A stretch of DNA of 63,837 bases, counting the filler, from Reclinomonas americana ATCC 50394 (lineage: Eukaryota): assembly GCA_048213135.1 (NCBI GenBank). It is 11 parts of 11 records of this genome, joined end to end, with 100 filler letters (N's around TTAATTAATTAA, not from the genome) between each part and the next. Parts side by side here need not be neighbours in the genome. Positions count along the whole stretch, not along the records: positions 10,684 to 29,816 come from AFZH01020354.1; 10 more parts are not named here. One strand, written 5' to 3'. Numbering within the stretch: the first letter of the stretch is position 1; each line of letters begins with the position of its first letter. Below the pieces are notes generated by a model. It ran no database searches. It was not told the DNA's origin and saw nothing but the letters and a program-made list of their open reading frames with translations. Positions 10,584-16,953 of the stretch are shown here, piece by piece. The translations under genes and the position numbers were made by a program.

Positions 10584-10748
10584 NNNNNNNNNNNNNNNNN
10601 NNNNNNNNNNNNNNNNNNNNNNNNNNNTTAATTAATTAANNNNNNNNNNNNNNNNNNNNNNNNNNNNNNNNNNNNNNNNNNNNTCACCGCATTCGGCAGT
10701 GGACAAGGGTTGTCCTCGGAGTAAACAGCACAAAGGTGACGCACAGCG

Positions 10749-13700
10749 ATGCGTGCGGCGCGCTCCCGTGGACTGTCGGCGGGCGAGGATGCTGCGCGCA
10801 CGAGCTTGCTTGACTCGGCGGACGACAGTGGTGCAGGCGTGATTAGTGACTCCTCGTCGCATGCACCAGCAACTGCCACAGGCACTGCTGTGCCTCCGCT
10901 GCCCACGGACTTTACACTCGACAGTGACGAGGCCGCTGCAGCCATTGCAGAGAAGCTGGTGTGTGTGTGCATGCATGCGCACTCTCTCCTTGTTCACTCT
11001 CTCTCACTCACACTCTCTTCCCTCCGTGTGTGCGTCTCTCTCTATCTTTCCTCGTGGCAAAGACGCGACCGGAGCAGCTGGTGGGAGTGCTGAGCGAGGA
11101 CGACACGCGCATTCGCATGTTCAAGTGCATTATTCGCAACATGCAGTACCGCAACTTGCGGGAGACCATGACGCCCTACATTCGCTTCATTCTCGGTGGC
11201 AACTACCAGGTGGTTGACAAGCGCCACTTGTTGCGTCATAGTCTCTGTCTTTTGTTTGTCGCGCGCGCGCGCACTTGTCTCATGCATTTGCATTTGGTGC
11301 ATGCATGATGCAGGGGTGGCAAGATTGAGATCAGTGGCAAACGCGGCCCCACGTTCCGCTCCAAGCGACTCAAGAGTCAAATGTCGGGTGGTGCCGGTGA
11401 GCGGGGGTTCGAGAAGCATCCGCCCTGTTTGTTGTTCTGCTCTGACATGGTTGTGCAGGTACCTTCCCCGGTCAGCTGACGCGTTACTGGCAAGGGTCGT
11501 ATGTGGATCTGGAGTCGCAGGATCTGGTCATTGAGGCGTGGCACTTCCGCTGGCTCTGCAAGAACGTGCGCAAGGGCGAGGCGCGTCTGCGACTCGTCGA
11601 CATTGCGCAGGCAGACATGCGGCAGTCGGTGGACATCAAGGGCGGCGCCGATTCCAAGTCCGGGGCCTATATCCTTTGTGCATCGTACACAAGCGTGCTT
11701 CGTTTCTCCACTGTGGTTGTGTGCTGCGTTGTCCTTGACTGCTGCTTGTTGCGATACCGACGGCAATGCGGCTGGACTTTGAGATCCTCTTCCAGGAGAT
11801 GCACCAGTTTCAACTCAGCTTCGACGACTGGACCGGGCGCGACATTGTGGCCGTCAACAAGGACACGTCTGGGTGCGTTGTTTTGCATGCGCTTTTTCTC
11901 CCACTTGTGTATCATGATCTGACGGGAGCAATGCAGTGCGTCCGCGACCTCCGATCCGTTCGTGCATGTTTCGATGCAAAAGGACTGGCGCAAGTGGCGT
12001 AAGCGCGGCGGACTGGTGGGTCGTGAATTCCAGTCGCACCGCGTGGATCAAACAACGTTGCGCAGTCAACATGCGGATGCACTCGACGAAGCACGTAACT
12101 CACCTTCTCACATGCGCTCAGCACTCCGGTGTGGGACCACTTGGGCTTGCTGACGTACTACGGAACCTTGTCGGAGATGGAGAACGAGGACTTGCAGGTG
12201 GTCGTGTACGATTGGGATGCCATGGAGAACACCAAGATTGGCGAGCGCCTGCTGCCGCTGCGCGGTGTGGTGGACACGCAGATGCTGCAGTGCCGCCTCG
12301 GTACGTATCCTTTCCGCGCGAACTGCACTCTCCACGACGTGACGCATCTGTACTGCATTTGCAGTGTACAAGTCGCATCGCCGTTCGAGCCAGGGCGGTG
12401 TGCTGTTCGGCAGCGTCAACCTGGTCACCTGTCCGCGGTACATGCAGTCGGGTGACTTTTGTTGCGTCTCACTGCATCACTGCTCCGTGTGTTTGTGCGT
12501 GCGCCTCACTCGATCATCACTGCTGCTACAGACACGCTCAAGCCCTGGCACATGTACCTAGCGGTGCACATTCAGTCGTGCCAGAACCTGAAGGCCATGG
12601 ACGAGTCGCTGTACTCGGACGCGTTTGTCGTTGTGCGCTACGATGGCATGTCGTTCCGCACCAAGGTTTGTCCGCGGCGCGTCGTATCGGTGCTTGTCAC
12701 AACTCGCAGTCTCCACATCTGACCTGCGTGCGCAGACCGTGTACGAAGACCTCAATCCACGATTCGACTACTACGTATACTTGCCGGTCATGTTTGTGGA
12801 CTACAGCGCCGATGAGTTCCGTCAAAAGGGCCGTATCGCCATCGAGGTGTTTGACGAAGACAGGGACGGCAACGATTTCCTTGGCTCGTGTTCGCTCTGT
12901 TGCGTGCACGTCCCCTCCTCCTTCATCGTTGTTGAGCTTCTCACTCATTTTTTCTCTCGTTGTGCTGCACAGCCGTGAGTGAGATTCTGCACTCCGCCAA
13001 GGTCGGGTACACGGAGCGACCGGGCGAGACCACCCGCATGTTCCAGGGCACGCTGCCGCTGCAGAATGCCTTCTTTGCCAACGTGGACCAGAAAGTGACC
13101 CTGGAGGCGTATTTCATCCCAGGTTCTCGCCTTTCCTTCTCTTCACAGAGGAGGTGCCTGCTCTTCTCACCCCTGTCACACGAATGCAGATCTCGGACCC
13201 AAAGTCCTGTTTGAGGAGGACCCAGAACCCGTGTTCGACCCGGAGGCGTCGGTGCCGAGTGCCATTATCAAGCGCCAGAAAGTGTGGCATGAAGAGATCA
13301 AGAAACACGGCGTTGTTGCGTGCTTGGTTCGTTGACGACACAGCGTGAGTCACTGCGAGTGACTTTTGTGGATGCAGACACGCAACTTCCCCGTGACTCG
13401 AGTGGACGAGAAGCTGAAGCAGCGATTCCTGCCGTCGTATGTGCAAGCGCCCGAGTATCCCATGCCTCGAGGTACGCCGATGAGCACTCTCTTCATTGTT
13501 CACCCTCACTCACATTCCGCTTCTCGTGTGGCAGACGTTCGCAACGAGCGAATCATTGCACGCATGATTGCACTCATGACGTGGGACTCGGATGAGTCGA
13601 TCTACCAGGGTCACAGCGACATTTGGACAACACCAGAGTACTTTCAGAGCATCGGGAAGGGAGACTCAGAGGACCATGCCATTCTCATGGTGCGCCATTT

Positions 13701-15760
13701 GTGACGAGAAAAAGGAGAGGGAGAGAGAGTGGGCTGAGGAGTGGTTATTCACCGACCACGCGCACAGTGCAACTTGCTGTTGGGCCTCGAAAAGTACAAG
13801 CGCACCGAGGCGTATCTCTGTCTCGGCGCACTGCCCGACGGTCGCGAGCACACGTGGGTGATGACGCGCGAGCCCGACGGCTCAGTGGTGTTCTGGGAGA
13901 CCACTTCGGGACGGCAGTATCAAGTTGCGACTGCAAGCATCACTTCTCCAGTCGTCGTCGTCGTCTCTCACTCGTCTACTGGCAGTTGCCGCAACGCTGG
14001 GAGGGACGGCGCGAAGACGAAGCCGAAGACGGCTATAATGCGAGTATCCCGACGGAGGCGGAGCTGGCGGCGGAGGGCATGGTCTCCATTGCGTGCGATC
14101 GCGTCGACGGTGCCATTGACAATGTGTGACACGATTGTTTCCCCCGATAGGTACGCGACGAAGACATGGTCGTGGTGCCTGGCGACACGTTTATCGACGT
14201 GCGCGACGTGCTCTTTGACCAGCTGGTGGAGGATGACCTCATGTTTGGACGGTACGCTACTCCGTGTCTTCCATACTCGTCTCATCCACTCACTGTGTTT
14301 TTTTCTTGTGCACACGTGCGCAGTCTGTCGGCTCGCCCGACCTCCAATCTCATGCAAAAGGTGTTCGACAGCGAGGTGCTCGACACGGCGGTGATGGAGG
14401 ACGCTGGACCTGCATCGTTGACCCCAATCGCGCTGCCGTACTCGCGCATCGATGTGGTCTTCAACAGTACCAACTTGTGGGCCAATGTGCAGGATCCGCG
14501 TCCAGGAGTTGCGTGGTGTGGTGTGCATGATGCGCGCGTATTTGCCGTCCTGTGTACCAACACATGTCACGTGCTACAGTTTGTCAAGTACGATTTTGAC
14601 GATGTTGCGCGCTGGGTGCCCTTCGTGTCGGACAGTCCCGAGCATGTGCGTCCTCATCGCTGTGCTTGCCCACGCTGTGTGCCATCCTCTCTCTCTCACT
14701 CCGCCATCTCCCCCGCCAGAGTTCTCTCCGACACCATCTGGTGTCCTTCTATCGCGAGGTGCCGCTGCAACCCCGACTTGCCGTCTATCGACTGCACAAG
14801 ATGGAGGAGGTGGTGCTGAAGGAGCTGCAGTGTTGCGTGCAGCTTGCTCGCGTACTCCATTTGCTTCCGTCCTCTTGCTGACTCGTACCGGTGCCGCAGT
14901 GTCATACTTTGTGTGGCGCAACAAGAACCACATGGACACGAAAGTGGTGAAGGAGCTGCGACGTGTTCTCCGGCACGGTCTGCGCATCATGGAACGCATG
15001 ACGGTACGTACGGTAGCATGTGCGACCCTGCACACTTTGCGTCTTCTCACAGAAGTGTTCTCTGTAGGTGGTGACTCCCTCGGAACTTGAGGCTCCAAAG
15101 AAGCGCCTAGCTGAGCTGCAGGAGAAGCTCAAGGGGCTTTTGGAGGACGCCAAAGTGGAGAATTCACCCGACGGACCCAGTGCGATTACGCGCACAGAGA
15201 TTGAGCGGGTCACGAAAGAAATCAAGGATCTCCGTCTGCAGATTATGGACTGGGGTGTGTGCTGCATCTATGTTGCTGTGCATCTGACGGCGATGCTCAC
15301 CTTGACGCTCTCCCACACAGACCTCGACGCGTGGAAGGGCATGCTGCAAGAGGCTGTTCCGCCGGGACAAGACTTTATCGGTCGGCCCTTCTGCTTCGCC
15401 TACCACGACGAAATCCGCATCCGCAAGGTTCGTGCGCGTTGCTCTAGAGAAGATCTCTAGTGGATCCATTCATTCACCTCTCTCCCGATCCCCCATCACA
15501 GTACATTATGAAGAACTTCCCAGTTCACGAGGAGACTGACAAGGACGTGCAGTTCGCATTCAGCACCTATGTTGAAGGCTACAGGAACCAAACTGTGGCT
15601 GTGTGGGTCTACGTGGCTCGCATGAAGCCGGTGCCACCTGGCCAAGGTACGTTGCTGCGTGTGTGCTTGCGTACGTGCCACACGATCATGCTGACCACTC
15701 GACCACTTCGCAGAGATCGAGGTGGACAAGACGCTGGACGACCTGGCTCCAAGTCTATGA
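10749..15760 (+). CDS. Multi-C2-domain protein with CEP76/CC2D2A-type transglutaminase-like C-terminal module (ciliary/centriolar)
   Basis: C2 motifs include SDPFVHV, LQVVVYDWDAMENTKIG, SDAFVVVRY and IEVFDEDRDGNDFLG. The motif GKGDSEDHAILM|CNLLLGL..AYLCLG..HTWVMT..VFWETTSG follows. About 20 introns; TGA at 15758-15760. Confidence 0.8.
11669..11757 (+). other. U12-type (minor spliceosome) AT-AC intron
   Basis: 5' end ATATCCTTT, branch sequence TCCTTGAC at 11732-11739, 3' end TAC. Removal restores the frame (SGAS-TAMRLDFE). No AG acceptor is available in 11700-11766. Confidence 0.88.
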
Positions 15761-15762
15761 TC

Positions 15763-16953
15763 TCAGTCGTGCTTTCGTGGCACCACATGCACCTGTGCGC
15801 GACGTAGAACATCCATGGTAAAACTGCCGGTTGTATGCAACACCGAGGCGAAGATCGCCAGCCCTACATCGTGAATGCGTGTCAGCGGTGCGTCCTTGCA
15901 GCACATCTTCAAACCGCAACGCACCCAGCACCGAGTACACGGAGACAAACAACTTTCCACCGACAGTCACCGGCACCACGTCGCCAAAGCCGATGGTGGC
16001 CAGCGTGGTCACCGCTGTGTGACCAACATGTAAGGCAGTGCAGCTCGCAGGATACGCAAACGGGAACGAACCAAAGTAGAAGGAGGTGTGAAGTGACCAG
16101 CCCTCGAGTAGAGCCATGCACACTGCACCCACTGCCGTATGCGCACCACGTGTGTGAGCGAAAGAGGATAGACGATAGATCCACGTGCAATGCCACCAAC
16201 CAGCCAACATGATCCCACAGGCCGCCAACAGGCCCCAACGCCCTCCACGCGCATCAATGGTCGGCGTGGTGACCTCCAGAACCCGATTGACAAGCACAGC
16301 ATACACACCCCTGCGCCATGTGAGCAACGCGCGGCAATCGACGATCATGAGAAGTGACGCAACATGCACATGATTGCATACACCACAAAGCACCACTGCG
16401 TCCCCTCGCCGCCACATCAGCATCACCACCAACGAGGCAATCGACGCCGTCAGAAAACTCACCCTCGAAAACGCATGCGTCGGCATCAAGTCACCAAAGC
16501 CGATCGTGGACAACTGCAACACCAACGTGAGATCACCAAAGAGCGGCGAGTGCAAGACACACAAACCGATGTGCACGAAAAGTAGAAAGCATCGACGGCC
16601 GTCCACCCCTCCAGCGTCATAAACAGCAGCGTACCAAAGCCGACGACCACCATCGAGGCAAGCATCACTGCAATCAATCAATCAATGCCACACACGCTCA
16701 CACACTCACGCAGAGGCACCCACTCACCACTAAGAGAGGTGACCGACGTCGCCGCCTCACCCGCCACTGCCGACGATCCAGTCGAGGCGCCAACTGCAGG
16801 CGACACCTCGGCCAGTGGCGCAATGAGCCCGAGATCGCCAGCAGCAGAGGAAGCAGCAGCAGCAACAGCAGTAGGCACCACCGGCTGCGTCACCGCCACA
16901 AAGACACTACGCGAGGCGTCGCCTCCAGTGGCAGCAGCCCCCGTTGTCGCCAT
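15763..16953 (-). CDS. Two-pore-domain (K2P/TPK-like) potassium channel
   Basis: Two pore units, EGWTAVDAFYFSCTS|LSTIGFGD and EGWSLHTSFYF|AVTTLATIGFGDVVP, with flanking TM helices. Confidence 0.9.

What the first reader, a model, noticed from the sequence alone, without database searches (positions are those of the whole stretch)
11669..11757. U12-type AT-AC intron, implying a retained minor spliceosome
Seen: an 89-nt intron with ATATCCTTT donor, TCCTTGAC branch site (A about 19 nt from the 3' end) and TAC acceptor. Excision joins two C2 exons in frame, and no AG acceptor is available. Known: these are the diagnostic minor-intron signals, and the minor spliceosome is patchily lost across protists. 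Its retention in such a compact genome is informative.
Basis: partly seen in the sequence, partly recalled or inferred. Interest (0 to 1): 0.75.

Follow-up and report, generated by a model that had tools for sequence, protein, structure and literature searches.

The report
Minor-class AT-AC intron, machinery present
This 89-base intron is a textbook member of the rare "minor" intron class, and the genome of this unidentified protist also holds most of the second splicing machine, with the twist that nearly all the minor introns detected are of the normally scarcer AT-AC kind.

Summary
The intron is there as described: ATATCCTTT donor, TCCTTGAC branch site 19 nt from a TAC end, in a 25-exon C2/CEP76-peptidase gene whose unspliced homolog requires its removal. 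A strict pattern finds 58 AT-type matches genome-wide against 0 in the control, but only 4 GT-type: about 34 versus 2 loci, 94% AT. U11 and U6atac score above Rfam cut-offs, a U4atac candidate pairs with that U6atac, and the AT-AC factor TXNL4B/Dim2 is present. U12 itself was not found in four searches, and no RNA run was listed. The U6atac is the known, unexplained "CC variant" that pairs poorly with the donor. Two corrections: in-frame AG acceptors do exist, though they are poor, and the genome is intron-rich, not reduced. A blind 409-kb sample shows no expansion. The scan noted U12 AT-AC introns on other pieces of this genome before, without genome-wide data. Verdict: a real new member of a known system; the AT-AC skew is the most unusual part, and the lineage is unresolved.

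The parts
11669..11757 (+). U12-type AT-AC intron, 89 nt, phase 1, intron 4 of 24
   Evidence: 90 nt in the second haplotype
11669..11677 (+). Minor 5' splice site ATATCCTTT; +5..+9 pair with the 5' end of this genome's U11
11732..11739 (+). Minor branch site TCCTTGAC, branch A at 11738, followed by T as in 32 of 34 fetched loci
11755..11757 (+). 3' splice site TAC, first AC after the branch site
11459..11668 (+). Upstream exon 4 (44% identical to P0001 residues 151-199)
11758..11872 (+). Downstream exon 5, in frame after excision
10749..15760 (+). Host gene model: 25 exons, 1101 aa, multi-C2 plus CEP76 peptidase-like domain (CEP76/CC2D2A superfamily); first exon and a few donors chosen by hand
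12305..12313 (+). GTATCCTTT four bases inside major-type intron 7 (12301-12364); no minor branch site; role unknown

Best explanation
11669-11757 is a genuine U12-type AT-AC intron removed by a working minor spliceosome. U11 pairs with +5..+9 of the donor (complementarity shown), a U12 that I could not find pairs with TCCTTGACT and bulges A11738 (inferred), the U4atac/U6atac pair joins and U6atac forms the catalytic core (genes shown, activity inferred), and the first AC after the branch site is used. This U6atac is a CC variant: in the canonical register it makes only two contiguous pairs with the donor (+4, +5) and mismatches +6 and +7, so donor recognition after U11 leaves must rest more on proteins, plausibly Dim2/TXNL4B, which in plants and humans is tied to AT-AC introns (inferred). 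Minor introns are rare here and mostly AT-AC, most likely because GT-AG minor introns were converted to the major type or lost, while AT-AC ones cannot convert by a single change (inferred).
For: Signals and frame. Homolog P0001 is continuous across the site and needs a 3n+2 removal. Allele: exons 40 substitutions in 3306 columns and 0 indels, introns 91 in 1671 plus 46 gap columns; this intron has a 1-nt indel. Class: 58 AT-type matches vs 0 in the reversed control; in 3 of 24 locus groups Pfam profile positions run on across the intron (CK2-beta 142|144, telomerase RBD 29|32, UDPGP 205|206); 8 of 8 groups with a Pfam-fixed upstream frame are phase 1. A SacI-domain gene has an AT-AC intron in the same codon context and phase as the human SACM1L GT-AG minor intron. 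Machinery: U11 (15), U6atac (12), U4atac candidate with 16 contiguous pairs to U6atac, including 7 of 7 positions the pattern left free (57, 101), Dim2 with TPDHT beside a separate Dim1 with TGNNN (69-71).
Against: U12 not found by the family search (42 of 1907 candidates scored) or three patterns (cmscan of 14 of 14 and 19 of 84 hits). The U4atac candidate does not score with Rfam even at E<=10 and only one copy was seen. Homology alone does not fix the junction: the AT-AC junction ranks 6 of 294 in-frame combinations, tied with a GC-AG option. Two GT-AG options with a CAG acceptor remain in frame in both alleles. There is no transcript evidence.
Confidence: 0.93

Rival explanations
1. The stretch is removed by the major spliceosome through a nearby GT-AG or GC-AG pair (for example donor 11713 with acceptor 11795, or a GC donor at 11680 with acceptor 11783), and the minor signals are a dead remnant.
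For: 58 in-frame canonical alternatives exist; 2 are GT in both alleles, in frame in both, end in CAG and are 55-110 nt. A GC-AG option ties the AT-AC junction in alignment score. Major donors in this gene are degenerate.
Against: Acceptors at 11783 or later cut into the stretch that aligns with the homolog. 11783 is GAG, used by 0 of the other 23 introns. The best-scoring GT donor, 11695, is GC in the other allele, and donors from 11716 on are out of frame there. All minor signals are intact in both alleles while the intron interior varies.
Confidence: 0.04
2. It is an AT-AC intron removed by the major spliceosome (U2-type AT-AC), which earlier scan notes propose for other introns of this genome.
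For: U12 was not found; the U6atac pairs poorly with the donor; earlier unchecked notes describe AT-AC introns without minor signals here.
Against: It carries both extended minor motifs; none of the other 23 introns of the gene has TCCTTRAC in its last 45 nt; U11, U6atac and Dim2 are kept, the snRNAs in two near-identical alleles.
Confidence: 0.02
3. The minor spliceosome is decaying: the snRNA genes are relics, U12 is lost, and such introns are poorly spliced or retained.
For: No U12 found; U4atac too diverged for Rfam; few minor introns (0 strict matches in 409 kb).
Against: Retention would stop the protein at codon 342 of 1101 in a gene whose exons are under clear constraint. U4atac and U6atac complement each other over 16 pairs. 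16% of sampled bases are N (80,411 of 489,245), so a short gene can be hidden.
Confidence: 0.01

Closest known systems
U12-type AT-AC (A-type) introns of animals, plants, oomycetes and Acanthamoeba
   Same: Donor [G/A]TATCCTT and branch site TCCTT[G/A]AC within about 45 nt of the 3' end (10.1101/2020.10.12.336362, passages); one minor intron among many major ones; phase 1 bias (PMC10639083, passages).
   Different: In human 24-26% of minor introns are AT-AC (PMC8280824 and PMC10639083, passages); here about 34 of 36 strict-pattern loci (Wilson 82-98%). Branch site mostly TCCTTGAC (51 of 58 by eye). Methods differ, so the comparison is rough.
Blastocystis sp. subtype 1 minor introns
   Same: AT-AC enrichment (77%, 196 of 253; PMC10639083, passages).
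   Different: Blastocystis introns average 42 nt and are 49% phase 0; here 71-101 nt to the first acceptor dinucleotide and phase 1 in 8 of 8 Pfam-anchored groups. The skew looks stronger here (P about 0.006 against 77%, different methods).
CC-variant U6atac (Trichoplax, cnidarians, sponge, Acanthamoeba, Physarum, Physcomitrella, oomycetes; PMC2396436)
   Same: CCGA at positions 13-16 in place of AGGA; no AG-type copy seen; poor pairing to the donor, called unexplained in that paper (passages).
   Different: Positions 10-12 read CCA here against GAG (GAC in the sponge) in the published CC variants (supplement file 3, parts 48-49).
Physarum polycephalum expanded minor-intron system
   Same: CC-variant U6atac; AT-AC introns present.
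   Different: Physarum has 20,899 minor introns, a changed TTTGA branch site and more GTATCCTT than ATATCCTT donors (3021 vs 627). Here the branch site is canonical and there is no sign of expansion.
TXNL4B / Dim2 / DROL1 subfamily
   Same: TPDHT motif that the DROL1 paper gives as diagnostic; best PDB hits TXNL4B at 3e-14 vs TXNL4A at 8e-4.
   Different: Function not tested; its partner CENATAC was not searched.

Membership tests
U12-type intron | 5' splice site [G/A]TATCCTT | tested here: met
   ATATCCTTT at 11669, both alleles
U12-type intron | Branch site TCCTT[G/A]AC within about 45 nt of the 3' end | tested here: met
   11732-11739, A 19 nt from the end; 6-31 nt to the first acceptor dinucleotide in 24 of 24 locus groups
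U12-type intron | Removal restores the reading frame of a conserved protein | tested here: met
   1101 aa, 48% to P0001; retention stops at codon 342. Exact junction not fixed by homology alone
U12-type intron | Rare class, a single one among major introns | tested here: met
   1 of 24 introns in the gene; 0 strict matches in 408,834 non-N bases of 50 blind stretches
U12-type intron | Junction seen in transcripts | not testable with these tools
   No RNA holder was listed
U12-type intron | Splicing depends on U11/U12/U6atac | not testable with these tools
   Needs knock-down or in vitro splicing
U12-type intron | Position conserved in other species | tested here: inconclusive
   P0001 has no genomic context; human CC2D2A and CEP76 are absent from the supplement files searched of PMC8280824 (file 13 not searched), but they are not shown to be orthologs. 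Another locus (SacI domain, L008) matches the human SACM1L context
Minor spliceosome | U11 snRNA | tested here: met
   2 copies, 51 bits vs cut-off 39, 5' end AAAAAGG
Minor spliceosome | U6atac snRNA | tested here: met
   2 copies, 37.8 and 34.9 bits vs cut-off 33, T-run end
Minor spliceosome | U4atac snRNA | tested here: inconclusive
   No Rfam score; but G000:C69 about 90037-90241 has 16 contiguous pairs with U6atac, a K-turn-like 5' hairpin, stem I and an Sm site. I judge it real
Minor spliceosome | U12 snRNA | tested here: inconclusive
   Not found; searches were filtered or pattern-bound and the assembly has many gaps
Minor spliceosome | TXNL4B/Dim2 beside TXNL4A/Dim1 | tested here: met
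Minor spliceosome | U11/U12 proteins (65K, 59K, 48K, 35K, 31K, 25K, 20K), CENATAC, SCNM1 | not tested
Minor spliceosome | Survey criterion: at least 3 minor introns and at least 2 minor snRNAs (PMC10639083) | tested here: met
   About 36 loci by strict pattern, U11 and U6atac over cut-off; intronIC itself was not run
CC-variant U6atac | CCGA in place of AGGA, and no AG-type copy in the genome | tested here: met
   none of the other 28 fetched hits of the core pattern looks like U6atac (30 of 31 fetched; 15 scanned)
U2-type AT-AC intron | AT-AC ends with major-type donor and no minor branch site | tested here: not met
   Both minor motifs are present
Physarum-type expanded minor system | Thousands of minor introns and a changed branch site | tested here: not met
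   0 strict matches in 409 kb, upper bound about 7 per Mb; canonical branch site

The most novel reading that the evidence does not exclude
This lineage has turned its minor spliceosome into an almost pure AT-AC machine: a very permissive major spliceosome absorbed nearly all GT-AG minor introns, leaving some tens of AT-AC introns that cannot convert. They are read by a U6atac that no longer pairs with the donor, by a U4atac that carries the 65K-type hairpin missing from U6atac, and by a U12 so diverged that four searches missed it. It would be the strongest AT-AC skew I found reported and a small, clean system for the open question of how CC-variant U6atac recognises the donor.
Probability: 0.3. 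Interest if true: 0.62.

Novelty: new member of a known kind. Interest (0 to 1): 0.38.

Why it matters
Minor-spliceosome presence is patchy among protists: the largest survey reports no minor introns in Discoba, Ochrophyta or Alveolata, but finds them in Blastocystis and some amoebozoans (PMC10639083, passages). A firm data point from another lineage helps only once the organism is placed, which I could not do. Beyond presence, the near-exclusive AT-AC make-up, the CC-variant U6atac and the retained Dim2 give a natural test of why AT-AC introns persist and how the donor is read without U6atac pairing. In practice, annotation of this genome must allow AT-AC introns, or conserved genes (CK2-beta, telomerase, UDPGP, Sec5, SacI) will be mis-called.

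Tried and rejected
RNA evidence: no RNA holder was listed for 11040-13200, so no reads were laid; this says nothing either way.

U12: family search 0 matches, 42 of 1907 candidates scored; promoter-plus-branch-box pattern 0 hits vs 2 control; helix-I pattern 14 hits vs 24 control, none U12-like; looser pattern 84 hits vs 60 control, 32 inspected, 19 scanned with Rfam, none U12-like. The other 52 were seen only as matched strings.

U4atac by family search: 0, 50 of 876 scored.

A second, canonical U6atac: 31 hits of the core pattern vs 39 control; only the two known alleles look like U6atac.

A link between the CC variant and AT-AC bias: weakened, as Physarum has the CC variant and mostly GT donors.

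GTATCCTTT at 12305 as a second minor donor: rejected, no branch site and the homolog favours the donor at 12301.

Ion-channel GT-AG intron (L082) as the human CACNA1 minor-intron position: the 9 CACNA1 rows listed have a different flank; not supported. TBC, UDPGP, telomerase, VPS33, EXOC, UTP23 and NVL names gave no matching human row (names guessed from junction translations).

Lineage: no placement or earlier notes (50, 75). PDB search of the SacI exon gave only spurious lectin hits.

One search had a wrong donor for intron 9; corrected, whose numbers are used.

Full report
1. Observation. The stretch 11669-11757 is 89 nt, begins ATATCCTTT, holds TCCTTGAC at 11732-11739 with the branch A 19 nt from the end, and ends TAC. 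The combined pattern occurs once in the window and in 0 of 100 shuffles; the two motifs alone are only mildly enriched. The window is a chain of contigs; the gene lies on G000:C4887, in an assembly of 108 Mb and 16,441 contigs.

2. Host gene. Exon scans gave C2 hits in 3 of 11 exons and CEP76 peptidase-like hits in 3 of 11; the two exons flanking the intron gave none. The upstream exon found one convincing homolog among 1.84 billion representatives, P0001 (1091 aa, unnamed, an unspliced reading frame; 2 hits listed, the second spurious by inspection). Its nearest Atlas cluster is a eukaryotic C2 plus CEP76-peptidase family. A model guided by P0001 has 25 exons from 10749 to 15760, encodes 1101 aa and is 48% identical over 1041 columns (some donors and the first exon were chosen by hand). 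The other 23 introns are 62-104 nt, GT-AG, with 20 CAG, 2 TAG and 1 AAG acceptors, and none has TCCTTRAC in its last 45 nt. Retaining the AT-AC intron stops the protein at codon 342.

3. Is the junction right? The homolog is continuous here and the frames demand a 3n+2 removal. The junction lies in a variable loop, so homology does not pick it: it ranks 6 of 294 in-frame, stop-free combinations of GT/GC/AT donors with AG/AC acceptors, tied with one GC-AG option. 'No AG acceptor' is therefore too strong: 58 canonical in-frame alternatives exist with donors from 11600. The second haplotype prunes them. It changes the best GT donor (11695) to GC and adds one base near 11714, which puts donors from 11716 on out of frame. 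Two GT-AG options with CAG and normal length survive (donor 11713), but they add intron-like residues and remove residues that align with the homolog. The allele leaves all three minor signals intact while the intron interior has 3 substitutions and an indel. Gene-wide, exons differ at 40 of 3306 columns with no indel, introns at 91 of 1671 with 46 gap columns.

4. The class in this genome. ATATCCTTT, 40-70 nt, TCCTTRAC gives 58 matches against 0 in the reversed control; the GT version gives 4 against 1. By eye the 58 fall into 22 pairs, 1 triple and 11 singles, about 34 loci, against 2 GT loci: 94%, Wilson interval 82-98%. These are lower bounds and count only perfect signals in short introns. 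In the 34 fetched loci (30 of 58 AT, 4 of 4 GT; 24 groups) the first matching acceptor lies 6-31 nt after the branch A. Pfam hits appeared in 9 of 24 groups; in 3 the profile continues across the intron (CK2-beta, telomerase, UDPGP), and all 8 with an upstream hit are phase 1. One SacI-domain intron matches the codon context of the human SACM1L minor intron, which is GT-AG (PMC8280824 supplement row). In 50 blind stretches (489,245 bases, 80,411 N) there were 0 strict matches, 0 ATATCCTTT and 1 GTATCCTTT donor against 1 and 5 in the control: no expansion, and no hidden mass of GT donors with weak branch sites in that sample, though it is only about 0.4% of the assembly.

5. The machinery. U11: two alleles, 51 bits, cut-off 39; it pairs with donor +5..+9. 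U6atac: two alleles, 37.8 and 34.9 bits, cut-off 33. Its donor-pairing box reads ACCGA, not AAGGA, giving pairs at +4, +5 and +8 and mismatches at +6, +7 and +9. This is the CC variant of Davila Lopez et al. (PMC2396436; passages; supplement file 3 parts 48-49), who call it hard to explain; one search found no other paper using the term. No AG-type copy appeared among 31 core-pattern hits. U4atac: a pattern derived from this U6atac gave 6 hits against 11 in the control, so the pattern alone is no evidence; but one hit matches U6atac at 7 of 7 unconstrained positions and 16 contiguous pairs, and has a K-turn-like hairpin, stem I and an Sm site. Rfam does not score it. U12: not found in four searches. 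Since the U4atac candidate escapes Rfam and sits beside an N run, divergence or a gap is the likelier reason. Proteins: two DIM1-family genes, one with TGNNN (TXNL4A) and one with TPDHT (TXNL4B). TXNL4B/DROL1 and CENATAC are tied to AT-AC minor introns (10.1101/2020.10.19.345900 and PMC8280824, passages). Other minor proteins were not searched.

6. Mechanism. Shown: the signals, the frame, the class, U11, U6atac, Dim2 and the snRNA complementarities. Inferred: actual splicing at this junction, a U12, protein-aided donor recognition, and conversion or loss of GT-AG minor introns as the cause of the skew. The degenerate major donors here (8 of 23 GTTGCG) fit the idea, which PMC10639083 raises as speculation for Helobdella, that loose major donors ease conversion (passages). 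Against a simple link between the CC variant and the skew: Physarum has the variant and mostly GT donors.

7. Comparison and novelty. The intron meets every testable feature of a U12-type intron, and the genome meets the survey criterion of PMC10639083. Minor spliceosomes in protists are known (PMC2396436 and PMC2846911, passages), AT-AC enrichment is known from Blastocystis (77%), and the CC variant is known. Earlier notes of this scan report other U12 AT-AC introns in this genome without genome-wide data; new here are the snRNAs, Dim2, the genome-wide counts and the lack of expansion. The lineage could not be determined; earlier notes hint at 'stramenopile-like' or a group with nuclear SmpB, untested. 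Supplements of the two bioRxiv preprints were not seen, nor the per-species tables of PMC10639083, which may list species with an equal AT-AC share. PMC13550442 (passages) and PMC4980772 (listing only) added nothing decisive.

8. Verdict. Observation confirmed, interpretation supported, new member of a known kind. Interest 0.38; the bolder reading of an almost pure AT-AC minor spliceosome with rewired snRNAs has probability about 0.3 and would deserve about 0.6.

Noticed in passing
L098:1497-1701 (G000:C69 about 90037-90241): The U4atac candidate has an extra hairpin after its Sm site with a CCTACTT loop, the loop that human U6atac carries at its 3' end and that 65K/RBM41 bind in U12 and U6atac (PMC11039992, passages). 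This genome's U6atac lacks it. Insect U4atac sequences in the PMC2396436 supplement show a similar 3' hairpin. I found no statement of this swap in one search and two papers' passages.
   Followed up: partly
window 11230, 12057, 12461, 12899, 13315, 13924, 14508, 14832: 8 of the 23 major introns of this gene start GTTGCG, the shifted donor class that earlier notes describe for this genome.
   Followed up: partly
window 12301-12313: A perfect GT-type minor donor sits four bases inside a major intron that has no minor branch site, in both alleles; chance or a remnant of minor-to-major conversion.
   Followed up: partly
L035/L036 and L001/L002, about 60-70 nt upstream of the snRNA starts: U11 and U6atac share an upstream CCCACAAYCG element that resembles the plant snRNA upstream element (resemblance recalled, not tested).
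   Followed up: no
L008 (G000:C32) and L019: AT-AC intron in a SacI-domain gene: glycine codon plus T before the donor and a phenylalanine formed across the junction, as in the human SACM1L GT-AG minor intron; likely an ancient position with a different subtype. Orthology rests on a weak Pfam hit (E 0.0002).
   Followed up: partly
window N runs, e.g. 10584-10683: The window is ten-times joined from contigs by N runs around a 12-base spacer; the host gene starts 65 bases from a contig end, so its first exon may be incomplete.
   Followed up: no
G000 as a whole: The assembly holds two split haplotypes (intron hits and snRNAs come in near-identical pairs), about 16% N in sampled contigs, and megabase contigs C1 and C2 that look bacterial.
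   Followed up: partly
L124/L127 (G000:C85:152715-153860): The two Dim1 exon hits lie on opposite strands around an N gap, probably a scaffolding inversion.
   Followed up: no
window 15755-16681 (-): Convergent neighbour with potassium-channel pore-like motifs in its open frames (family recalled, not searched).
   Followed up: no
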